Of a DNA stretch of 64,000 nt, positions 5,199 to 15,380 are shown piece after piece. The notes under the pieces were generated by a model. That model saw nothing but the letters and a program-made list of their open reading frames with translations, was not told the origin of the DNA and did not search any database. The DNA comes from Podospora anserina. Lineage: Eukaryota. The stretch covers positions 4,340,001-4,404,000 of the forward strand of contig CM030333.1 in NCBI GenBank assembly GCA_017654855.1. The letters run 5' to 3'. The translations under genes and the position numbers were made by a program. Numbering within the stretch: the stretch's first letter is position 1; each line of letters begins with the position of its first letter.

Positions 5199-6017
5199 TC
5201 AGCGCCGGCCCCGACTTCTGCTGCGCCGGCGATCGTGGTGCCTGGACCTTTCGTGCCTATCTCTGCTCCGGCTTCGACTTCTACTCCGGTGTCTGCGCTG
5301 GCCGGATTCGCGGGTGAATCTAGGTCCATCATTGTCGTCTTGTCTTGATCTGTGGCTGCGGCTGTGTCGATCATCGTCGCGTTCTGGGCTGCGACTCCTC
5401 CGGCGGTGTCTTCGCTCCCTGTCTTCCCCGTCTGGCCTGTCCCGTCTTCGTTCCCTGCTGCGACTGCGATCACGATGACCATCCCGGCTCCTGTGTCTCC
5501 TCCTGTGTCGTCTTTCCGAGTCCTCGTCTCTATCGAGATGCCGGTGCCGATGTCTGTGTTCCCTGTCACCCATGTCTCGCGGCGCCTCTGACCCCTTCTT
5601 ATCCTCCTCCTCCTTCTCTTCCTCCTCATACATAAGTGCCCTCGCAGGCCCCTTGACTACCCTCGCCGATGGTCCATCTGCCGGTACCTCCACCGCGTTC
5701 GCCCCGCTGGCATTCCTCACCGGGGGAGGTAGCCCTAGAGCCAGCGCAATCGCGTCCTCCTCGGCCTCCTTGATCTTGCGAATCTCATCGCGGCGCTCGC
5801 GGGCTGCTCTCTCTTCCTCTGTCTCGTTCGAGTCGGCGGCGGTGGCGTCGGCTTTGGCGTACCAGTTGAGGTCTCTGCCTTTGGCCCAACGGCCCACGGG
5901 GGCTTTGAGGGAGTGGCCTAGGTAGTTTTCTCTGTGGGCCGAGGTGGCTACTTCGTCCCAGGAGAAGTTGACGCCGCCGCGGGAGCCGGTTTTGCGAACT
6001 GTGGAAAGGAGGTCCAT
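5199..6017 (-). CDS. MMTAG2-like (multiple myeloma tumor-associated protein 2 family) RS-rich nuclear protein
   Basis: MDLLSTVRKTGSRGGVNFSWDEV...RENYLGHSLKAPVGRWAKGRDLNWYAK N-terminus and long R/S/D/H-rich tail; ATG at 6017. Confidence 0.85.
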   Translation of the reverse strand: MDLLSTVRKTGSRGGVNFSWDEVATSAHRENYLGHSLKAPVGRWAKGRDLNWYAKADATAADSNETEEERAARERRDEIRKIKEAEEDAIALALGLPPPVRNASGANAVEVPADGPSARVVKGPARALMYEEEEKEEEDKKGSEAPRDMGDREHRHRHRHLDRDEDSERRHRRRHRSRDGHRDRSRSRERRRDRPDGEDRERRHRRRSRSPERDDDRHSRSHRSRQDDNDGPRFTRESGQRRHRSRSRSRSRDRHERSRHHDRRRSRSRGRR

Positions 6018-6422
6018 GGCAGTTAGTTGCAGGGTTGTTGGTGGGGGAGATAGGTGGTTGGAAGGTCGCAACTTCCGGGGTTGGATGTTTGTGAATGTTG
6101 ACAGGAAGGAAGTCGCGACGTCAGAAAGTCGTTGAACTGGGGAAGGTGCCAAGAATGTGCATCCTGGGGGCTTGCAGGCTGCCCCACTTACCCAACGTTC
6201 TGGAAGGTGGCAGGGGTCTGCGGGGCATCGGGACTGCAGGGGAGCTGCCCGCCGCTGTTTACTTTCTGGAGCTCTCTTCTTCTGCTGATTGAAACTCGAA
6301 ACTTTACAACCATCTTCTCGACCAACCTCCCTTGACCGACAACATTCTCCCCCTTCTTCTCCTACTTGGACGAGTAGCTTACCTTCTATCATCACAAGCA
6401 AAATTCTAAGCGGCAGTGCACA

Positions 6423-7436
6423 ATGGCAACCACCTCCTCCAGGAGCGATCCTCTGGATGAGATCCGCTTCACCGGCCCAGTCGAGTTCGAGGGGGGCATC
6501 CACAACAACAGTGTGCTCTACTACTTCGCTACCTCGCCCTTTTACGACAAGACCTCCAACAATGAGGTTCTCTTTCAGCAGGGTCTCAACAATCCCAACA
6601 TGATGCAATTCCTGGCCACCCGAGAGGCTTTTGAGGGCCGCTTGCGCACCATGTCTGGCCTCGAGTTCATCGTTGCCCAGGAGCCAGCCGAGACAGGCCC
6701 CGGCGCGGGAACTGGCGTCTGGGTAATCAACAAACAGACACGCCGCAAGAGAAGAGAGGGCGAGGAGGATGAGATCGCTGTCCACTCGGTATACTATATT
6801 GTTGGAGAGCATATTCACATGGCTCCCAGCTTTGCTGACATTATGAGCGCTCGACTCGTAAGTTTGCTGATCTTCTTTCGGCTGCCTGCTGGGCCTCGAC
6901 ACGATGCTAATCATTGTTATTGCGATGTACAGGCAACCATCTCCAACTTCCTCAGCAATATTCTTCCGTCTTCAGCTTCCGTCCAAGCCTGGTCTCCTGC
7001 AACTGGCCGTGTCTACAACCAACCCTCCACTACCACGGCAGGCTCCAATTCTGTCAAAGCTATCACGGCCTCTGCTCAGCAACAATCTCAAGGTTCAAGA
7101 CAACAGAGCGACATCGGTCTCCCCACAACCCGCGACTTTGAAAAAGCTCTCTATCTTCATGAGCAATACGGCGATCAGTACATGGATGAGAACCCCATCA
7201 CCGGACGGCCGGGCGAATTTCACCTCTCCTCCACCGGCAGAGCCAAAGTTAACCTCTCTGCGGCTGCGGCTGCCAAGCCATTACCAGTCAAGCTCCCGAC
7301 AATCAACACCAAAGTGGCCGACAGTCCTCTCACATCAAAACCCACGGGCAAGGAAACCAAAAGCCCCAAAATCCCGGGCGGTCCGGGGAAGCTCAAGAGA
7401 AGGAAGAGCAGCAAAGCTGCTGTTACCCCGTCATAG
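6423..7436 (+). CDS. MED6: Mediator subunit Med6
   Basis: PLDEI...NSVLYYFATSPFYDKTSNN...LRTMSGLEFIV...VWVINKQTRR...YYIVGEHIHMAPS; intron 6858-6932 (GTAAGT..GCTAAT..TACAG). Confidence 0.92.
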   Translation: MATTSSRSDPLDEIRFTGPVEFEGGIHNNSVLYYFATSPFYDKTSNNEVLFQQGLNNPNMMQFLATREAFEGRLRTMSGLEFIVAQEPAETGPGAGTGVWVINKQTRRKRREGEEDEIAVHSVYYIVGEHIHMAPSFADIMSARLVSLLIFFRLPAGPRHDANHCYCDVQATISNFLSNILPSSASVQAWSPATGRVYNQPSTTTAGSNSVKAITASAQQQSQGSRQQSDIGLPTTRDFEKALYLHEQYGDQYMDENPITGRPGEFHLSSTGRAKVNLSAAAAAKPLPVKLPTINTKVADSPLTSKPTGKETKSPKIPGGPGKLKRRKSSKAAVTPS

Positions 7437-7626
7437 AGTAATGGGAATTCGCCTTCCTCAAAGGGCTCTCGAGAGGAGAAGCCAGGTGAAAGTGTTTAAC
7501 ACTTGAGGGATGGGAGTGGCACTGATTCAGGGCACAATTCAGACTCTGCTCAGAATCCCCCAAACCAGCCATCAACAATTCACGGCCAGCAATCAGGATT
7601 TCCAGGGCAATCTTCAAGTTCCCAAT

Positions 7627-8739
7627 ATGAGCTCACAGCCTGGGGCAAGCTCTCAGGTCAGTCAGCCCAATAACCAGACGCAGTCAGCGAACCAGAAAAA
7701 TAAACCACCCCACACCCCCGAGGATGATGACCACCCACCTCTCTTTTTGGGCTCCAGTTCCGCGAAGGATCCTATTTCTGATAAGGACCCTGCTTTTGAG
7801 AAGGACACCAGCTCTGGGGAGGATACCGATTCGAAAAAGGAGGTCAGCTCTGAGGAGGACGCTGACCCTGAGAAGGACTCAGGCCACGGGGAGTGCTCAG
7901 GTCACGAGGAAGATGCCGCTTCCGAGGAAAACGCCGATTCTAGGGAGGGCTCCGGTTCTGTAACCTCCAGTCCAGGAAGACTGGCCCATGTTTTCAGGGC
8001 GGTGCGGGATGACCGTGAAGTGAGACTTGCCTGCCCTTGGGAAGAAGGTTACCTTGATCTTCCAGGCGGGCCTCTTCGGCCTCCTGGCAAAATCTTCAAT
8101 CCTTTCGATCCCGGTTGGAATCTTGCTCGCAACAGAATGGATGCGCTTGGCCATCCCTATTGGTATTTCGACGGCCCTAAACCGGACAACAACACTGGGT
8201 ATAGATTCTGGAGACAAGCTCAAAGAGCGGCACGAGTGTGTATCTATCTTCTATGGGCGAGGGGCCCACTGAACCTAGTCACTAAGGACCTGGTGGGCCT
8301 CCTGAACATGGATTCGCGCCCAACTGGTGCAAGTGGCCTCCCGGTTTTGAAGCTATTAGCCATCAAGTGCTTTTTTACTATGCTCATGGACAACAGGATG
8401 AAAAGGCTGACGACGTGGCCGATGACGGATGATGCTAGTTACGCTCGGCGTAACCAATTCACGGCCTACGTGCTCTCTGATGTGTTTCTTTGTTTTGAAT
8501 TCACGGGCCGAGAGGGCGAGCCCACAGTGGGAAGGATGCGGAAAGACATGTATACTTACGATTGCATCAACACCTGGCACTTTGAAGGTTTGGCGGCCGG
8601 GAGCGACAAGAGGGGCGTCAAAAGAGCCCGGTTCTGGAACTTCAGGTTGGTGGAAGAGTTGGGAAGGCATCTTGACCGCTTTTTACTCCCCCCTAACCCG
8701 GACTACAAGGACTGGGCAAAGTATGAACACGACAATTGA
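7627..8739 (+). CDS. Hypothetical intronless protein (~370 aa) with acidic 6-residue repeat region; start could be 7510
   Basis: Uninterrupted ORF 7510..8739; low-complexity N-half and aromatic-rich globular-looking C-half; no family recognised. Confidence 0.6.
   Translation: MSSQPGASSQVSQPNNQTQSANQKNKPPHTPEDDDHPPLFLGSSSAKDPISDKDPAFEKDTSSGEDTDSKKEVSSEEDADPEKDSGHGECSGHEEDAASEENADSREGSGSVTSSPGRLAHVFRAVRDDREVRLACPWEEGYLDLPGGPLRPPGKIFNPFDPGWNLARNRMDALGHPYWYFDGPKPDNNTGYRFWRQAQRAARVCIYLLWARGPLNLVTKDLVGLLNMDSRPTGASGLPVLKLLAIKCFFTMLMDNRMKRLTTWPMTDDASYARRNQFTAYVLSDVFLCFEFTGREGEPTVGRMRKDMYTYDCINTWHFEGLAAGSDKRGVKRARFWNFRLVEELGRHLDRFLLPPNPDYKDWAKYEHDN
7762..7959 (+). repeat. Degenerate 18-bp coding minisatellite (~11 units)
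   Basis: Units such as gagaaggacaccagctct / gaggaggacgctgaccct / gagaaggactcaggccac / gaggaagatgccgcttcc in exact 18-nt register. Confidence 0.75.
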
Positions 8740-9504
8740 TGGTATGCACGTGATTGGTTTGAGAGGTCACAAGATGAGAGAGACAGGGAAAATTGCTGCA
8801 GTTATCTGGAAACCCTCTGAACGATATGGCGGATAAAGTGTTTGCGAGGCCGCCCGTGCGTGATGTAAAGGACGAGTACCCTGATGCGGACGCGGAGGAG
8901 CTGCCTGTTTTACGGTGGATGTGGCATCACCGGTTGATTGGGAGTCGAGCGAAAAGGATTGTGATTTGGAGCGAAAACAAAGGAGAAGGGGAAGGCGCAA
9001 GTTTGGACGAGGGAGGAGGTGAGGGGAGAGAAAAAAGAGAGGGAGAGGAGGTGGGAGGAGTTGAGGGTGCGGAGGGAGGCTTTCATGGCGGTTGGGTTAA
9101 TGGAAGGGGGAGGGGGGGAAGAGAGTGGGATCTTTTCGTAGAAGAGGGGGTGTATGTAGCGGAGAATCAAATTCGGAATAGAAGCGAATTAATAATGCAT
9201 GTTGACCATTTTTGGAGGCGTGTTGATAATCTTTCCAAGGTCTTTGCGTTATGTGGCAACTCTTGTCGATTTCTGTTTTTCTACACACACACCTCTTGAT
9301 CAGTCTAAGACCTGTTAACTATCTTAAAGGGCTGTTATTATATGTTTGATACTTGTTCAATTATCTTTGAAGGCGTACTGACTATTATACAAGGTTTTGG
9401 TATCTTGTTGCAGTGTCTACTTTTTTGTCTAAAATGTCTGGCAAGGGAGACGAGGGAGGTGTGTAATGATGGTGGACTTGATGGTGCTGATGTGGAGGTG
9501 ATTT

Positions 9505-9508
<4 letters not shown>

Positions 9509-9561
<53 letters not shown>
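9509..9561. repeat. (GT)n microsatellite
   Basis: Run of ~26 TG/GT units. Confidence 0.95.
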
Positions 9562-9564
<3 letters not shown>

Positions 9565-10189
9565 TGTGTTTGTGTGGGAGGGGGGGGGGATCTTGAGACT
9601 ACTCCCACTTGACGGACTTGGTTCTTTTTTTCTTATTCGTCAGGCGAATATAAAGTTGATATTGCCGCGCACGGCTTGCAGGTTTGTTGGATAGGTACCT
9701 CCTTCACGGCCCAGTTTGGGGGAATCAAGAAAACCAAGATGGGGCTGGAGAAGAGAGGTTGGAGGAAGACAAAAACTGAGCACTTTGGAGACGACGAAGA
9801 TCACTTACACCTTCCGAGGCGGAGCATTCTATTCTTTCCTGACTGGCCAGGTCCGGTGCCAGGACCTTTTGCTATCTTGAGAAACTTTAGACTGCGAAGC
9901 AAAGCAACATGTCGACACTTCTCGGGCTAATCTTTCAGATAACAGTCCACATCTTTCCCCTTCTAACTATCGGGCAGAGCAGAGACCAGCATCGTAAAAC
10001 AACAGACACAAGAACCACAAAATATAGGCAAAGAACAATACTGTGGAAGAAAATGGTACTCATATAATCTAGTTATTTTCCCTCGCAATGATACCCATAT
10101 TGTATTCTGACGCTAGGCAGTTAGCACCATTATCCAAAAGTTGCGATATTTGAAATAGAGTAACAGCTGGAAATATGCGGAGTGGTCAT

Positions 10190-10272
10190 TCAGAAAAAGA
10201 ACAATGTAGGTGATTGGTTATAATCATGGTAGATATAACTCATAAACAGCCTCTCTTGCGAGAATTCATCAT
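10190..10272 (-). ncRNA. Box C/D snoRNA copy 6 (LSU rRNA double guide)
   Basis: ATGATGA (C)...AGAGGCTGTTT-ATGA (guide+D')...ATGATT (C')...CTACATTGTTCTTTTT-CTGA (guide+D); terminal stem TGGTCA/TGACCA (10183-10188, 10274-10279). Confidence 0.88.
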
Positions 10273-10444
10273 TTGACCAAAGTTAAAACCGCGGGGGGGT
10301 GGGAACGTACCTTTGCTGGGGGGGAGCTATTGAGTTGACCGTGTGGAATACACAATGTCTATCTGACGAGATACTGGGCAAGTGTTAGGAACACAGACAG
10401 ACCAGAGTGATGAAATGAGGTGAATGCAAGGGGAAGATGGGGTG

Positions 10445-10528
10445 TCAGGAATAGAACAATGTAGGTGATGTGGTTATAATCATGGTAAGACATAACTCAT
10501 AAACAGCCTCTTTCGAGTAATTCATCAT
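10445..10528 (-). ncRNA. Box C/D snoRNA copy 5
   Basis: ATGATGA...AGAGGCTGTTT-ATGA...ATGATT...CTACATTGTTCTATTC-CTGA. Confidence 0.9.
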
Positions 10529-10698
10529 AGTGGAGATGGGGGCAGCAGAAGATGAAAGAAACGTACCATTGTTAAGGATATACCCCAGTTGATTATCGTT
10601 GAGTTGATGACTCGGCCGAATGAGCAGTTCCTCGAATCGTGTTAGCTTGGCCCAGACTCGAATCAGAGTAGAAAAGGAGGAAGTAAATAGTGTCATGA

Positions 10699-10780
10699 TC
10701 AGAAATAGAACAATGTATAGGTGATGAATGTAATCATGGTAAATTACTCATAAACAGCCTCGTGAGAGAATATGCATCAT
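10699..10780 (-). ncRNA. Box C/D snoRNA copy 4
   Basis: ATGATGC...GAGGCTGTTT-ATGA...ATGATT...TACATTGTTCTATTT-CTGA. Confidence 0.88.
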
Positions 10781-10949
10781 GTGGACCAGTAAAAAAGAGT
10801 GTGTGTCGGGGAGTGTGACATACTATGGCGGACGAGAAGGTGGTGGACCTCAGTGGTCATGGTCAAGAGACGGGCTGTGTTACTGTTGACAGGTTAGTCA
10901 CTGTGCAGTGAAGCGCATGAAAAGAGAAAAGTGTTTCGAGTGTGTCCGA

Positions 10950-11029
10950 TCAGAAATAGAACAATGTATAGGTGTATGTAAATCATCAAAAAAGATCTCA
11001 TAAACAGCCTCGTAAGAGAAATGCATCAT
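10950..11029 (-). ncRNA. Box C/D snoRNA copy 3
   Basis: ATGATGC...GAGGCTGTTT-ATGA...TGATGATT...TACATTGTTCTATTT-CTGA. Confidence 0.88.
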
Positions 11030-11203
11030 GGTGACAGTGTGAAGAATCGAAGAAGGATTGTTACGTACCAAAGAACCAGCAAATGAACTCGTGGCTGAAA
11101 CACGAGAGACGTTCAACTCGTAGGTATCTCCTCAGACTACTCCAGGTTAGCCAATGTGTTCCAGGTTAGGCAGAAGCAGATGAGTTGGCAGTTGATGGTG
11201 TAA

Positions 11204-11284
11204 TCAGAAATAGAACAATGTATAGGTGATAAATGCAATCATTAAAAAGATTTCATAAACAGCCTCGTGAGAGAAGTACATCAT
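11204..11284 (-). ncRNA. Box C/D snoRNA copy 2
   Basis: ATGATGT...GAGGCTGTTT-ATGA...ATGATT...TACATTGTTCTATTT-CTGA. Confidence 0.87.
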
Positions 11285-11428
11285 GGCAGGCGGGATGAAG
11301 GAAGATTGTACTATGGATACTTACTTTAATAAACAGCCCAAACATTGCAAACTCCATATCAACTATCGCCCAGTTAGCCAACCTGCCCAACGCCAATGCC
11401 GAAGAAAGAATAAAGGGTTTGAGTAGCC

Positions 11429-11507
11429 TCAGAAATAGAACAATGTATGGTGTTAAGTGTAATCATCAAAAGATTTCATAAACAGCCTCTTTCGAGAAAT
11501 GCATCAT
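11429..11507 (-). ncRNA. Box C/D snoRNA copy 1
   Basis: ATGATGCATTTCTCGAAAGAGGCTGTTTATGAAATCTTTTGATGATTACACTTAACACCATACATTGTTCTATTTCTGA. Confidence 0.88.
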
Positions 11508-11693
11508 AGAGCAATAGCATAACCAACAGCGCAAGTGAACTCCTTGCCGCCAGCCAGCCAGCCAAAAACGAGAGAAGAAAGGAATCAAAACTTACCTCCA
11601 ACACGACTTCCAGCGGGGGACCGCGGATGACAACAAATACCATCTCAAATTAAGAGTTATCCTATCGCTATATAAGTGTATCATAAGTCATTA

Positions 11694-14600
11694 TTACTCA
11701 ACAATCCAACCCTTCCCAGGAACCTTGCGTTGTGTCACTCTTCTTGCTGGCAATGGCCATCCCAGCCCTCCAGCGCCGCCCTCAGCCCGAAGATATGGGA
11801 TCACCCAGACCTCCTTCGTCTTGCCATCGGCACTTTCAGAGCCCTTGACCTCTTTGATGGGCTTGCCATACGTGAGAAGTGGCGTACCCTTGGCTAGAGA
11901 AGCGATCTGGCCTGCTGTCAAGTCCGTCAAAGCATGCATCCTCGTCTTGACCTTCTTCTCACCGTCTGCGCCTGTGTTGCCAGCCTTCTGGAGGTAGGCA
12001 TAGCAGATGTACTCGGGGCATTCGGCGGTGCTGAGATGAGCAAGAGGGGAAGTTGGATGTATGTATACCAGCCTGTCAAGAGGATCCTCAACCTTTTGAT
12101 CACCCTCAAGCGGGATGAGAGGGATGTATGGAACATCGATCGCACGACGTGGTTTCCTGTACGTCTCAGGCGGGTTGGGAGCCTTGTCAGCCCTGATGGC
12201 GACTTGATCAATGAAGCCTGCGGCAATCATCTGCTTGAGAGCTTGGACCTGTGTAGCAGAAGGAGGGTCCAGTTTCTCCTCAAGCTTGAAATTGGCGTGT
12301 TGTGGAATGTTGGTCCTCAGGAGATCCGCGATCTGGAATTGCAGCTGCCGAATTTCCTTTAGGATCTTGAACCGCACAAAGTGGCTTTCGCACCAGGCTT
12401 CTGTGGGCTCATGGGCAAACTCTCCTACGACCTGGAGCAGCTTGATGGCGTCACTCTTGTCGTCGAGGTAGCAAAAGTTCTTGTGGACAGCATTATATGC
12501 TTGACGAACTCTCGCTCGCTTTTCCTCGGCGACCACCTCTTCATTGGTACGGAAGTCTTCGGTGCTCTCCTCTAATGCTGGAATGGCTTGGTGTTCGTTG
12601 ATGAAAATCTCACCAGCAGACAGGGCGGCAACCAGAGCAATGGTATATGGCAGGCAGCCGTGAAGGTGTCCAACCAACAGGATGCGTGAGAAGCGAGGTG
12701 ACAAGGGGAAAATGGACATGGTCGAGCCTGTTGGCGTGATCTGCCCCTCAGGTGTGATGGCTGAAAGGTAGGTCAAAAGCTTCTCAGCCTTGACCAGGCT
12801 TTCTCGCTCTGGGGGTGTCGGGAATGGAAAGTTGACGACATGTTGCAAGTTCATGGCCTTCAGTTGTAGAACGACGCCCTCGATGGGCATGCGGAGCAGC
12901 TCTGGGTCGGCAAAGAGAGGGAAGTCCCTTTCGTAAATCGCAGACGAGTACAGCCTCCAGCAATGGCCAGGGCCAGTACGACCGGCACGACCGGCACGTT
13001 GTTGCGCACTTGCCTTGCTGATCCAATCGATCTGGAAGCTCTGGACGTTGCTCACAGGGTCATACCGGCGCTCCTTGGATCTGCCACAGTCGAAGACATA
13101 CCGAATACCAGGAATAGTCAAACTGGTCTCTGCAACGTTTGTCGACAAGATGACCAATCGCGAGCCGTCCGGGGGTGGCTCGAAGACCTTCATCTGCTCT
13201 TTTGTCGGAAGCATCGAGTACAAGGGCAAGATATGCATCTTTCTTGGTCCTGTGCCGGACTCCTCATCCTCAATGTCGAATTCCTTCTCCTCTTCTTCCT
13301 CGTCGGAAATCTCATCTTCATCCATATCGTGAACCGCTCTGTCATCGATATCGCCAAAGTCGATATCCTCAGCCTCGATAGGAGCTTCCTTGGCTGAAAT
13401 CTTGACCTTGGGCCCAGATGCAGTGTTCATGCCACCGCCAAAAGCAGCCTTCAGACGCTTGCTGAGTTGGGTGATCTCGCCTTGGCCAGTGAGAAACACA
13501 AGCATGCCACCTGGTGGCAGCTTTCGATGACCTCTGCTGATTTTGCGAAAGGCGTCCTCGACATAGTCGTGCCCTGTCTTCTTGGCGAAGTGGATGGTGA
13601 CCTCGTGTTGACGGCCCTCCACGTCGATAACTCGTGGCGGAGTCTCGAAGAGCGCGGTATTTTGTGTAAATTCTTCAACACGTAAAGTGGCAGACATGAT
13701 GATCAGCTTCAAAGGCTTTGTTGTGGGGTCTTCCTTGGCCAGCTCAGCTCTCAGCTTGACCACTCGGCTGAGCATTGCGATGAGGATATCGGTGTTGACA
13801 CTTCTCTCGTGGGCTTCATCGATAATAATGGCAGAGTACTTGCGAAGTGCAAAATCCTGGGCCGCCTCTCGGAGGAGAACACCATCAGTCATGAACTTGA
13901 TGGCTGTGTTGGGATCGACGGTGCCCTCGAACCGAATCTGGTAGGCGACGACCTTGGAAAAGTCTCCCATCTCCTGACCAACCCGTTTCGACATACTGAC
14001 AGCAGCCACACGTCTCGGCTGGGTGACGCCAATCATGCCAGGAGTAGGACCCTTCTGGTCACCGTAGCCAGCCTCAAACAAAAACTGCGGCAGTTGTGTT
14101 GTCTTTCCCGAGCCAGTGGCACCACAGATGACGACTACGTCGTTGTTGTGAATGGCCTCCATAATCTTCTGTTCCTCAGCCACGACAGGAAGCTTGAAAC
14201 GAGCCTCCTCAATCTCAGGGTTCCTTGTGACGGTGACGGCATGCGACTTTCTGGTGACATTGGTTGTTGGCTGCAACTCAATCGGTAGTGGCTCTTGCTC
14301 TAATGGGCGGGGCTGGAAGTTTTCTGGTCTGGGCATTTCGAGTATAGTGGAAGTTGTTGGTGTGTATCCCAGAGCTTCGTTTCGTTGCTGGTGTGCCCAA
14401 GCCTTGAAAGCAGATGATCTTTCTTTCCGCCGCTCTTTCATAGACTCCTCGTCTTCCTCGTCCTCCGAGCCGGACCCCTCTTCAGAACTCTCTTCGTCGT
14501 CATCCTCTTCCTCTTCGTCCTCTCCACTGCCAGCATCACTCATGTCCTCATCCGACTGCTCTTCACTTTTCTCCGACCCACCAGCATCAGACTCGTCCTC

Positions 14601-15380
14601 ATCCTCCTCACCCGACTCCTCTTCATCAGCGGAGCTGAACCCGCCAAATTCATCAGATACTGGTTCTTCGTGAACGACAGGCGCAGCTAATGAGAACTTC
14701 GACTTCACACCGCCTCTCTTTTGTCTCTTTGCAAGCACTGGGCGGCCAGAGTCGTCGACCTCGAGTGGCCGTTTCAGACCAGAGCCGACTGCCGATGTGG
14801 TAGGAGCTGCCGCGGTTGTAGAGGACTGTGGTTGATCTTGCTTGGCGCTGGTGCCCTGCTGTGTCGTCCTGGGTCCTTCCTCCTCAGGCTCGTCGGATTC
14901 CTCCGGTTGCCGATGTTGTGGGACCTCCCCCTTCTTAACAGTGCGCTTCTGGTAGAGCAGCGTCAAGTCTGACTTATCCACGCCGAGACCGGCATCCTTC
15001 TCCCTGAGAACGCGGCGGATGGCTTGCTTCTTGGTCTCCTTAACTTGACCAATTGACTTGGCACTGCTGAATAAACTGGTGTCGATCTTGTTGGCCTCGA
15101 GTTTTTTGAGGAGCTCTCGGTTCTCATCCTTCTTCAACTTGCTTTCGATGTACTTCTCCAGACGTTTGGCCTTTTTTCCAGTGACCTTGGTGCCATCGGG
15201 CTTTAGTGACTCGCGCAACTGTTTTCTCTTCTCCTCGGCCTCAGCCTGCTGCGCCGGGGTGATCTCAACAACATTGGAATCTGCATCGAGCTCTGTGTCG
15301 AGAGTAGCTCTCTCCTCGGCGCGTTGGCGCTCAAGATGCTTCCGCTTGCGCTGACGTGGGACGAATTTCTTGACGGCCAT
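11694..15380 (-). CDS. DHR1: DEAH-box RNA helicase Dhr1/Ecm16 (DHX37), SSU processome
   Basis: 1228-aa ORF; GATGSGKTTQ, TQPRRVAA, DEAH, SAT, STNVAETSLTIPGI, QRAGRAGRTGPG; N-terminal KFVPRQRK and acidic linker typical of Dhr1. Confidence 0.93.
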   Translation of the reverse strand: MAVKKFVPRQRKRKHLERQRAEERATLDTELDADSNVVEITPAQQAEAEEKRKQLRESLKPDGTKVTGKKAKRLEKYIESKLKKDENRELLKKLEANKIDTSLFSSAKSIGQVKETKKQAIRRVLREKDAGLGVDKSDLTLLYQKRTVKKGEVPQHRQPEESDEPEEEGPRTTQQGTSAKQDQPQSSTTAAAPTTSAVGSGLKRPLEVDDSGRPVLAKRQKRGGVKSKFSLAAPVVHEEPVSDEFGGFSSADEEESGEEDEDESDAGGSEKSEEQSDEDMSDAGSGEDEEEEDDDEESSEEGSGSEDEEDEESMKERRKERSSAFKAWAHQQRNEALGYTPTTSTILEMPRPENFQPRPLEQEPLPIELQPTTNVTRKSHAVTVTRNPEIEEARFKLPVVAEEQKIMEAIHNNDVVVICGATGSGKTTQLPQFLFEAGYGDQKGPTPGMIGVTQPRRVAAVSMSKRVGQEMGDFSKVVAYQIRFEGTVDPNTAIKFMTDGVLLREAAQDFALRKYSAIIIDEAHERSVNTDILIAMLSRVVKLRAELAKEDPTTKPLKLIIMSATLRVEEFTQNTALFETPPRVIDVEGRQHEVTIHFAKKTGHDYVEDAFRKISRGHRKLPPGGMLVFLTGQGEITQLSKRLKAAFGGGMNTASGPKVKISAKEAPIEAEDIDFGDIDDRAVHDMDEDEISDEEEEEKEFDIEDEESGTGPRKMHILPLYSMLPTKEQMKVFEPPPDGSRLVILSTNVAETSLTIPGIRYVFDCGRSKERRYDPVSNVQSFQIDWISKASAQQRAGRAGRTGPGHCWRLYSSAIYERDFPLFADPELLRMPIEGVVLQLKAMNLQHVVNFPFPTPPERESLVKAEKLLTYLSAITPEGQITPTGSTMSIFPLSPRFSRILLVGHLHGCLPYTIALVAALSAGEIFINEHQAIPALEESTEDFRTNEEVVAEEKRARVRQAYNAVHKNFCYLDDKSDAIKLLQVVGEFAHEPTEAWCESHFVRFKILKEIRQLQFQIADLLRTNIPQHANFKLEEKLDPPSATQVQALKQMIAAGFIDQVAIRADKAPNPPETYRKPRRAIDVPYIPLIPLEGDQKVEDPLDRLVYIHPTSPLAHLSTAECPEYICYAYLQKAGNTGADGEKKVKTRMHALTDLTAGQIASLAKGTPLLTYGKPIKEVKGSESADGKTKEVWVIPYLRAEGGAGGLGWPLPARRVTQRKVPGKGWIVE

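What the first reader, a model, noticed from the sequence alone, without database searches (positions are those of the whole stretch)
10107..11595. Hidden array of six paralogous box C/D snoRNAs, one per intron, in a non-coding host gene
Seen: a ~80-nt unit recurs six times at ~250-nt spacing with unrelated spacers. On the minus strand each reads C box (ATGATG[A/C/T]) - GAGGCTGTTT - D' (ATGA) - C' (ATGATT) - TACATTGTTCT(A/T)TT - D (CTGA). Each copy is bracketed by its own donor (GTAAGT/GTACGT/GTATGT), a CTAAC branch point 55-69 nt downstream of box D, and an AG about 10-11 nt further (8 or 14 nt in the last intron). Exons are 38-68 nt, and joined exons 2-3 give only an 18-codon ORF. Established: intronic C/D snoRNAs are released by splicing and sit at a constrained distance from the branch point; fungal clusters usually carry different snoRNAs. 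Inference: a homo-polycistronic host amplifying one snoRNA six-fold, invisible to ORF annotation. Whether the family is already catalogued cannot be determined here.
Basis: partly seen in the sequence, partly recalled or inferred. Interest (0 to 1): 0.92.

Follow-up and report, generated by a model that had tools for sequence, protein, structure and literature searches.

The report
Six snoRNA copies behind DHR1
Six copies of a known fungal rRNA-methylation guide RNA each sit in their own spliced intron just behind the DHR1 helicase gene of a Podospora fungus, a real but fairly ordinary snoRNA cluster whose host looks like the helicase's own mRNA tail.

Summary
Six 79-84-nt units on the minus strand share invariant C, D', C' and D boxes and two invariant guide blocks. 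The 14-nt core motif occurs 6 times against 0.01 expected.

The family is already catalogued. Its two guides, size and intronic position fit Neurospora crassa CD28: D' guide to 26S-Am1845, D guide to Am1859, D' guide homologous to plant snoR33 and human U95 (Liu 2009, Table 1). Canzler 2018 already notes that CD_28 paralogs persist in Sordariomycetes.

The "non-coding host gene" is probably wrong. Contigs of two studies run from the upstream DHR1/DHX37 ORF straight into the spliced exons. In 7 of 15 related metagenome loci a CD28-like copy lies behind DHR1, and one consensus donor lies 20-73 nt after the stop in the six analysed. The host is most likely the DHR1 3'UTR, grown from one snoRNA intron in relatives to six here.

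No small-RNA, methylation or own-rRNA data were available. Interest is moderate to low.

The parts
11694..15380 (-). DHR1/DHX37 DEAH-box helicase ORF (1228 aa plus stop TAA at 11694-11696); the likely host gene
   Evidence: ORF list. Pfam hits DEAD, Helicase_C, HA2_N, HA2_C and OB_NTP_bind. 99% identical to proteins that sources name RNA helicase / DHR1 of Podospora comata and P. bellae-mahoneyi.
11596..11693 (-). 98 nt between the DHR1 stop and the first donor (first part of the 3'UTR, or exon 1 of the host); holds TATATAG at 11668-11674
   Evidence: X1 and X3 contigs are continuous from the ORF to 11596.
11363..11595 (-). intron 1 (233 nt, GTAAGT..TAG) carrying snoRNA copy 1 at 11429-11507
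   Evidence: Joint in X1 and X3, plus a 14-letter loose end in X6; boxes and guides.
11325..11362 (-). exon 2 (38 nt)
11137..11324 (-). intron 2 (188 nt, GTAAGT..TAG) carrying snoRNA copy 2 at 11204-11284
   Evidence: Joint in 4 of 4 runs.
11069..11136 (-). exon 3 (68 nt)
10883..11068 (-). intron 3 (186 nt, GTACGT..CAG) carrying snoRNA copy 3 at 10950-11029
   Evidence: Joint in 4 of 4 runs.
10824..10882 (-). exon 4 (59 nt)
   Evidence: with the cut moved by 1 as the tool notes
10631..10823 (-). intron 4 (193 nt, GTATGT..GAG) carrying snoRNA copy 4 at 10699-10780
   Evidence: Joint in 4 of 4 runs, 'cut +1'; sequence read.
10567..10630 (-). exon 5 (64 nt)
10374..10566 (-). intron 5 (193 nt, GTACGT..CAG) carrying snoRNA copy 5 at 10445-10528
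   Evidence: Joint in 4 of 4 runs.
10311..10373 (-). exon 6 (63 nt)
10107..10310 (-). intron 6 (204 nt, GTACGT..CAG) carrying snoRNA copy 6 at 10190-10272; the only copy with a clear external stem
   Evidence: Joint in 4 of 4 runs. The 15-nt flanks form a 6-bp duplex of -8.5 kcal/mol against -2.5 +/- 1.7 for shuffles.
9819..10106 (-). terminal exon (about 288 nt); contigs of three studies stop at 9815-9819
   Evidence: X3 record 6, X6 record 9 and X7 record 13. This is only a weak hint of a poly(A) site.

Best explanation
The interval holds six paralogous intron-encoded box C/D snoRNAs of the fungal CD_28 family (N. crassa CD28). Each carries two guides for 2'-O-methylation of two adenosines 14 nt apart in the large-subunit rRNA (N. 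crassa 26S-Am1845 through D', Am1859 through D). Each copy lies in its own GT-AG intron, 38-88 nt after the donor and 55-69 nt before the branch A. This is the geometry under which snoRNPs assemble on the pre-mRNA and the snoRNA is trimmed out of the spliced, debranched intron. The spliced RNA is most likely not an independent non-coding gene but the extended 3'UTR of the DHR1/DHX37 helicase mRNA. A single CD28 intron just after the DHR1 stop codon looks ancestral in Sordariales. In the Podospora lineage the intron-exon unit was duplicated to six, after which everything except the snoRNAs diverged to background. Shown: the repeat, the box and guide conservation, all six splice junctions, contig continuity with the DHR1 ORF, and synteny in relatives. 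Inferred: stable about-80-nt RNAs, the rRNA targets, the single-molecule link to DHR1, and dosage as the reason for six copies.
For: Boxes and both guide blocks are invariant in 6 of 6 copies while the linkers vary. GAGGCTGTTT is kept in 24 of 24, and ACATTGTTCT in 23 of 24, distinct homologous sequences from the window and 15 metagenome loci. One homolog reads CTGA where the others read ATGA, which confirms that position as D'. Liu et al. 2009, Table 1 (passages seen) lists Nc CD28 as 78 nt, cDNA-cloned and intronic, with D' to 26S-Am1845 (12/0; At snoR33, Hs U95) and D to 26S-Am1859 (14/0). The window copies are likewise double guides, with a 10-12-nt block before D' and a 14-15-nt block before D, and the fifth nucleotide before each box is U, which implies an A target. 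All six joints have GT..AG ends: joints 2-6 in 4 of 4 runs and joint 1 in 2 of 4 runs plus a loose end in a third. X3 record 8 (3537 letters) runs from the ORF through exon 6, and X1 record 4 (4040 letters) from the ORF through exon 4. DHR1 lies directly upstream on the same strand in 7 of 15 related loci. One consensus donor lies 98 nt after the stop in the window and 73, 66, 68, 73, 21 and 20 nt after it in six distinct loci. L011, L012 and L013 have a single copy with at least 2 kb of downstream flank; L010, the closest relative at 86% DHR1 identity over the aligned C-terminal stretch, has at least 2. Similarity is confined to the snoRNA.
Against: No rRNA sequence of this organism or a relative could be obtained, so guide-target pairing was not computed here. 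Assignment to CD28 rests on the published table and on recalled knowledge of the LSU region; the Nc CD28 sequence itself is in a supplement I could not open. Rfam 15 gives no match at E <= 1. The runs are labelled 'RNA?' (a guess), and contigs cannot prove that a single molecule joins the ORF to the spliced exons; the tool warns of this. TATATAG lies 20 nt after the stop and could be a promoter for a separate host transcript. In X7 the ORF contig stops at 11628 and in X6 at 11737, so DHR1 mRNAs may end before the first donor. Box C has a non-consensus seventh base in 4 of 6 copies, and 5 of 6 copies lack a terminal stem. Copies 2-4 carry C instead of A just 5' of the D' guide block, so they may pair more weakly. 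No small-RNA data were seen.
Confidence: 0.68

Rival explanations
1. One reading: the six snoRNA introns belong to an independent UHG/GAS5-like non-coding host gene. Its transcription starts in the 98 nt after the DHR1 stop (or inside the end of the ORF) and merely overlaps the DHR1 3'UTR.
For: TATATAG lies at 11668-11674, 20 nt after the stop. The ORF-side contigs of X7 and X6 end at 11628 and 11737. The spliced tail has no ORF longer than 57 codons. N. crassa clusters I-V sit in non-coding UHG-like hosts (Liu 2009, Results). Contigs cannot separate overlapping transcripts.
Against: Two contigs from two studies are continuous from the ORF into the exons. In L008 and L017 the donor is only 21 and 20 nt after the DHR1 stop, and the same-strand DHR1-snoRNA linkage is kept in 7 of 15 loci down to about 65-75% DHR1 identity. 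That is hard to reconcile with a separate promoter downstream of the stop.
Confidence: 0.25
2. Only some copies are functional; the others are decaying duplicates (snoRNA pseudogenes) that are still spliced out but not stabilised.
For: Box C position 7 is C or T in 4 of 6 copies. Copies 2-4 share a derived CACGAGG and a TA insertion before the D guide, relative to the form seen in most homologs. Only copy 6 has an external stem.
Against: Both guide blocks and all four boxes are invariant in 6 of 6 copies while the flanking intron and exon sequence has drifted to background. That argues for purifying selection on every copy. The D-box-to-branch-point distance is also kept in all six.
Confidence: 0.15
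3. The repeat is not a snoRNA but another intronic repeated element, such as a splicing regulator or a mobile-element remnant.
For: No Rfam match; no direct RNA or protein-binding evidence here.
Against: The element order C - guide - D' - C' - guide - D, the size, the intron position, the conservation across many fungi and the fit to a cDNA-cloned N. crassa snoRNA all point to a box C/D snoRNA.
Confidence: 0.02

Closest known systems
Neurospora crassa CD28 (family CD_28 / Nc_CD_28 of 'The fungal snoRNAome')
   Same: Intron-encoded double-guide box C/D snoRNA of about 80 nt. A D' guide targets one LSU adenosine and a D guide targets an adenosine 14 nt downstream. It occurs in Sordariomycetes, where paralogs are reported to persist.
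   Different: Liu 2009 lists one CD28 gene and stresses that N. crassa snoRNAs are mostly singletons; here there are six copies in tandem. Host gene and copy numbers per species are not in the main texts I read. The supplements were closed, so the six copies may already be tabulated there.
Human SNORD95 (U95) and plant snoR33
   Same: Liu 2009, Table 1 gives them as homologs of the D' guide function.
   Different: No Rfam model matched any copy at E <= 1, so there is no detectable sequence-family membership. The D guide (Am1859) has no listed homolog outside N. crassa.
UHG/GAS5-like non-coding snoRNA host genes, including N. crassa clusters I-V
   Same: One snoRNA per intron, short poorly conserved exons, spliced host RNA.
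   Different: Those clusters carry different snoRNAs and are separate non-coding genes. This one carries six paralogs of a single snoRNA and appears to be the 3'UTR of a protein-coding gene.
Tandem one-per-intron arrays of one snoRNA in animals (mammalian SNORD115/SNORD116, Drosophila Uhg isoform clusters); recalled, not looked up here
   Same: Repeated intron-exon units, each intron holding a copy of the same box C/D snoRNA.
   Different: The mammalian arrays are orphan, imprinted and tens of copies long, with whole units conserved. Here there are six copies, canonical rRNA guides, and only the snoRNA is conserved.
3'UTR-intron genes subject to EJC-dependent NMD in N. crassa and P. anserina
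   Same: Splice junctions lie downstream of a stop codon. Lelandais 2022 counts 344 P. anserina genes with 3'UTR introns and suggests NMD regulation (passages).
   Different: The word snoRNA does not occur in that main text. NMD sensitivity of this transcript is untested.

Membership tests
box C/D snoRNA | C box (RUGAUGA) near the 5' end and D box (CUGA) near the 3' end | tested here: met
   ATGATG and CTGA are invariant in 6 of 6 copies. The seventh C-box base is A in 2, C in 3 and T in 1.
box C/D snoRNA | Internal D' and C' boxes | tested here: met
   ATGA (D') and ATGATT (C') are invariant in 6 of 6 copies but degenerate. One homolog, L018:9184-9262, reads CTGA at D'.
box C/D snoRNA | Antisense element of at least 10 nt directly upstream of D or D', complementary to rRNA, with the target opposite the fifth nucleotide | tested here: inconclusive
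   The two blocks are invariant in 6 of 6 copies, and in 24 of 24 and 23 of 24 distinct homologs. Their positions fit the D' 12/0 and D 14/0 guides of Nc CD28. No rRNA sequence could be fetched; some searches found only chance matches.
box C/D snoRNA | Length about 60-120 nt; for intronic copies, about 50-70 nt upstream of the branch point | tested here: met
   79-84 nt; box D to branch A is 55-69 nt.
box C/D snoRNA | Terminal stem bringing C and D together | tested here: not met
   Only copy 6 has a flank duplex beyond shuffles (-8.5 against -2.5 +/- 1.7); 5 of 6 do not. From recalled knowledge, many intronic snoRNAs lack such a stem, so this is not disqualifying.
box C/D snoRNA | Stable small RNA bound by Nop1/fibrillarin, Nop56, Nop58 and Snu13 | not testable with these tools
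   No small-RNA or RIP data. Family expression is shown only for Nc CD28, by cDNA cloning.
Nc CD28 / CD_28 | Double guide: D' to 26S-Am1845 and D to 26S-Am1859 | tested here: inconclusive
   Both guides predict A targets, because U is fifth before each box. The published sites are 14 nt apart, next to the Um1866 site of CD22. I recall that the LSU region fits this, but neither the Nc CD28 sequence nor an rDNA was available to align.
Nc CD28 / CD_28 | Intronic, about 78 nt, present with paralogs in Sordariomycetes | tested here: met
   The window is a Podospora. It has six intronic copies. The paralogy statement is in Canzler 2018.
SNORD95 / snoR33 (Rfam families) | Match to the curated covariance model | tested here: not met
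   No Rfam 15 family matched 8000-14000 at E <= 1 or the whole window at gathering score.
UHG/GAS5-like non-coding host gene | Independent transcription unit without a protein product | tested here: inconclusive
   The spliced tail has no ORF above 57 codons. However, contigs join it to the DHR1 ORF, and donors lie 20-98 nt after the stop in the window and six distinct loci.

The most novel reading that the evidence does not exclude
DHR1, the helicase that releases U3 snoRNA from pre-ribosomes, has carried a methylation-guide snoRNA in a 3'UTR intron since before Sordariales diversified. In Podospora that 3'UTR has grown to six snoRNA introns. Every long-isoform DHR1 transcript is then marked by six exon junctions downstream of its stop codon and behaves like a GAS5-type, NMD-sensitive snoRNA host. 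A proximal poly(A) site near 11628 (after the TATATA element) would yield the translatable helicase mRNA. The choice of 3' end would then set the ratio of helicase to snoRNA output from one ribosome-biogenesis promoter.
Probability: 0.15. Interest if true: 0.6.

Novelty: new member of a known kind. Interest (0 to 1): 0.35.

Why it matters
The finding adds a validated, correctly bounded annotation to a model fungus: six snoRNA genes, six introns, and a roughly 1.9-kb 3' extension of the DHR1 transcription unit. It gives a clean case of local snoRNA amplification, from one copy to at least two to six, inside a conserved syntenic slot. The repeat unit is about 250 nt and only about 80 nt of it is similar; Liu 2009 puts the RIP threshold at about 400 bp, so my inference is that the array escapes RIP. 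If the 3'UTR reading is right, it is also a tractable system for asking how a protein-coding ribosome-biogenesis gene doubles as a snoRNA host, and whether NMD or alternative polyadenylation balances the two outputs. It does not reveal a new class of RNA or mechanism.

Tried and rejected
- Rfam 15 search of 8000-14000 at E <= 1, and of the whole window at gathering score: no match.
- Whole genome of the window: not held, so copy number elsewhere in the genome and the organism's own rDNA could not be examined.
- rRNA target search: I scanned viral contigs with a gapped pattern made of the two plus-strand guide complements. Six loci were returned. The three with the shortest gaps (L002-L004) had no Rfam rRNA match, and the two I read (L002, L003) are unrelated coding-like sequence. 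These are chance matches, and L001, L005 and L006 were not inspected.
- The look-up of sequencing runs: no RNA holder listed. The 14 partial holders are 'RNA?' by guess.
- Zhang & Sachs 2015 (PMC4574236): not held.
- A search for 'intronic snoRNA' + UTR + DHX37 returned one unrelated paper, seen as a listing only. A search on snoRNA, '3 UTR intron', host gene and fungi listed no paper on a DHR1-hosted snoRNA, seen as listings only.
- Bacterial-type promoter and terminator scan: not meaningful for a fungus.
- Terminal-stem search: positive only for copy 6.
- Simple donor regex in the non-DHR1 arrays: it found no consensus donor for 3 of the 10 copies examined (L018 copies 2 and 3, L007 copy 1). 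One-per-intron organisation is therefore only suggested there.
- Neighbouring ORFs 7510-8739, 8793-9299 and 9342-9596: no Pfam family.
Full report

Yes. On the minus strand of 10190-11507, six units of 79-84 nt align with 49-50 invariant columns. The invariant elements are, in order:
- ATGATG (box C);
- GAGGCTGTTT followed directly by ATGA (first guide and D');
- ATGATT (C');
- TACATTGTTCT, then three more bases, then CTGA (second guide and D).

The repeat finder recovers the families at 223-257-nt spacing. The 14-nt core GAGGCTGTTTATGA occurs six times in the 64-kb window, all here and all on the minus strand, against 0.01 expected; 0 of 100 shuffles reached six. A sequence-only covariance model built from the six finds no further copy in the window.

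Similarity stops at the snoRNA borders:

| Segment | Mean pairwise identity | Shuffled |
|---|---|---|
| snoRNA | 0.83 | 0.57 |
| 5' intron flanks | 0.49 | 0.47 |
| 3' intron flanks | 0.59 | 0.52 |
| exons | 0.48 | 0.48 |

**2. Are the introns real?**

I laid contigs of four coded runs from four studies on 9300-12300. The runs are labelled 'RNA?' by guess. All six predicted introns appear as joints with CT..AC ends on the plus strand, which is GT..AG on the minus strand:
- 11363-11595: X1 and X3, plus a 14-letter loose end in X6 that reads as the end of the upstream exon;
- 11137-11324, 10883-11068, 10631-10823 (tool note 'cut +1'), 10374-10566 and 10107-10310: 4 of 4 runs each.

Internal exons are 38, 68, 59, 64 and 63 nt. 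The terminal exon runs to about 9819, where contigs of three studies stop (9815-9819); this is only a weak hint of a 3' end. Unspliced pieces covering introns 2, 4, 5 and 6 are also present in single runs.

Within the introns:
- the donor lies 38-88 nt before box C;
- the CTAAC branch A lies 55, 57, 56, 57, 60 and 69 nt after box D;
- the AG follows 10-14 nt later.

From established knowledge of intronic box C/D snoRNAs, this is the constrained position upstream of the branch point expected for splicing-coupled snoRNP assembly. Liu 2009 describes comparable distances in N. crassa.

**3. What organism and what neighbours?**

The 1228-codon ORF directly upstream on the same strand (11694-15380) has the DEAH/HA2/OB domain set. 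It is 99% identical to proteins that sources name RNA helicase or DHR1 in Podospora comata and P. bellae-mahoneyi, and 70-95% identical to DHR1/DHX37 of other Sordariales. The window is therefore from the Podospora anserina species complex. Its GC content is 52.8%.

**4. What is the snoRNA?**

Rfam 15 has no match. The N. crassa survey (Liu et al. 2009, PMC2780460; Table 1 seen as passages) lists Nc CD28 as follows:
- 78 nt, cDNA-cloned and intronic;
- D' guide for 26S-Am1845 (12/0), with A. thaliana snoR33 and human U95 as homologs;
- D guide for 26S-Am1859 (14/0), with no listed homolog.

The window copies have the same layout. A 10-12-nt block sits before D' and a 14-15-nt block before D. 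U is the fifth nucleotide before each box, so both targets are adenosines. From memory of the LSU rRNA region around the neighbouring conserved Um1866 site (Nc CD22 / snR62 / U34), the complements of the two blocks lie 14 nt apart there, as the published positions require. I could not verify this against a sequence supplied by a tool, so it is recalled.

Canzler, Stadler & Schor 2018 (PMC5824354, passages) state that fungal snoRNA families normally have one member per species. [quoted passage not shown] Nc_CD_28 (CD_28) in Sordariomycetes'. The family is therefore catalogued and its paralogy is in print. Copy numbers and hosts would be in supplements that I could not open.

**5. Relatives**

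One metagenome scan with a gapped pattern of the conserved motifs returned 15 loci. The model found 25 copies in them. Four pairs of loci look like duplicates of the same organism, leaving about 11 distinct loci.

The guide blocks are kept in 24 of 24 and 23 of 24 distinct sequences, while linkers vary. This is the signature of guides held by a conserved target. One homolog has the canonical CTGA at D'.

Copy numbers per locus:
- 3: L007 (= L021);
- 3: L018 (= L019; the contig ends 151 nt after the last copy);
- 2: L010 (contig cut);
- 2, weak: L020;
- 1: the remaining loci.

Most of these copies also have a donor 35-48 nt upstream and a branch-like motif 54-68 nt downstream. No consensus donor was found for 3 of the 10 copies examined. 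Small same-snoRNA arrays are therefore a property of this family, and six is the largest seen here.

**6. Who is the host?**

In 7 of 15 loci (6 distinct), DHR1 at 65-86% identity lies immediately upstream on the same strand. After fixing the true stop codons (the Chaetomiaceae-like loci have one extra small C-terminal intron), exactly one consensus donor lies between the stop and the first snoRNA. It is 98 nt after the stop in the window, and 73, 66, 68, 73, 21 and 20 nt after it in L010, L013, L011, L012, L008 and L017. Twenty nucleotides leave no room for a poly(A) site plus a new promoter.

In the window itself, X3 record 8 (3537 letters) is continuous from inside the ORF through exon 6. 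X1 record 4 (4040 letters, about a full-length DHR1 message) is continuous through exon 4.

I therefore read the 'host gene' as the 3'UTR of DHR1. One snoRNA intron is ancestral (L011, L012 and L013 have a single copy with at least 2 kb of flank), and the number grew to at least 2 in L010 and to 6 in Podospora.

Caveats:
- Contigs cannot prove single molecules.
- A TATATAG lies 20 nt after the stop.
- ORF-side contigs end at 11628 (X7) and 11737 (X6).

An overlapping independent transcript, or a proximal poly(A) site for the helicase mRNA, therefore remains possible.

**7. Mechanism**

- Shown: transcription and splicing of six introns, each holding one conserved C/D unit at the canonical distance from the branch point.
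- Inferred from established snoRNA biology: snoRNP proteins assemble on each unit during splicing; the debranched introns are trimmed to about 80-nt snoRNAs; these guide Nop1-dependent 2'-O-methylation of two LSU adenosines.
- Inferred: six copies give six snoRNAs per host transcript, which may compensate for the modest expression expected of a helicase gene.

Copies fall into subgroups. Copies 5 and 6 are 93% identical and resemble the form common in other fungi. Copies 2-4 share derived changes. This points to successive local duplications. Only about 80 nt of each 250-nt unit is similar, below the roughly 400-bp RIP threshold quoted by Liu 2009, so my inference is that the array escapes RIP.

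**8. Comparison and novelty**

The array works like a UHG/GAS5-type host with one snoRNA per intron, and like animal same-snoRNA arrays (recalled). The snoRNA belongs, as far as I could test, to CD_28.

Two points appear in none of the main texts I read: the six-copy array, and the conserved placement in the DHR1 3'UTR. Those texts were Liu 2009 Results and Discussion sections, and passages of Canzler 2018, Espagne 2008 and Lelandais 2022. Espagne 2008 lists only 13-15 snoRNAs found by homology. Lelandais 2022 counts 344 genes with 3'UTR introns and never uses the word snoRNA. Supplements may hold more.

**Verdict:** a real, well-supported snoRNA cluster. It is a new member, with an unusual host arrangement, of a known kind, and its interest is moderate to low.

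Noticed in passing
window 11668-11674 (minus) and 11628: TATATAG lies 20 nt after the DHR1 stop codon, and the ORF-side contig of run X7 ends at 11628, about 45 nt downstream. This could be a proximal poly(A) signal and site for DHR1, or a TATA box for a separate host transcript.
   Followed up: partly
L008, L011, L012, L013/L014, L017 (C-terminal end of DHR1): The DHR1 relatives at about 65-75% identity have an extra small intron between the GW and PLP residues, about 20 codons before the stop. It is absent from the window and from L010.
   Followed up: partly
L018 9184-9868 (= L019) and L007 1714-2541 (= L021): Three-copy arrays of the same snoRNA family sit at loci without DHR1. In L018 the array follows a Tim17/22/23-family ORF on the same strand. 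In L007 an acyl-CoA dehydrogenase ORF lies nearby. The family has apparently moved between hosts in other fungal lineages.
   Followed up: partly
L015 1164-1244 and L009 2266-2344: In these homologs box D sits two nucleotides closer to the conserved guide block. That would shift the predicted methylated nucleotide by two positions.
   Followed up: no
window 5199-6914 (minus): A 571-codon ORF has an MMtag (PF10159) domain. The plus-strand ORFs 7510-8739, 8793-9299 and 9342-9596, between it and the array, have no Pfam family. A short X1 contig covers 9592-9730.
   Followed up: no
window 10079-10340, 10601-10852, 10429-10591, 11116-11266: Contigs that run unspliced across introns 6, 4, 5 and 2 are present in single runs, beside the spliced forms. 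They may be intron retention, pre-mRNA or excised introns.
   Followed up: no
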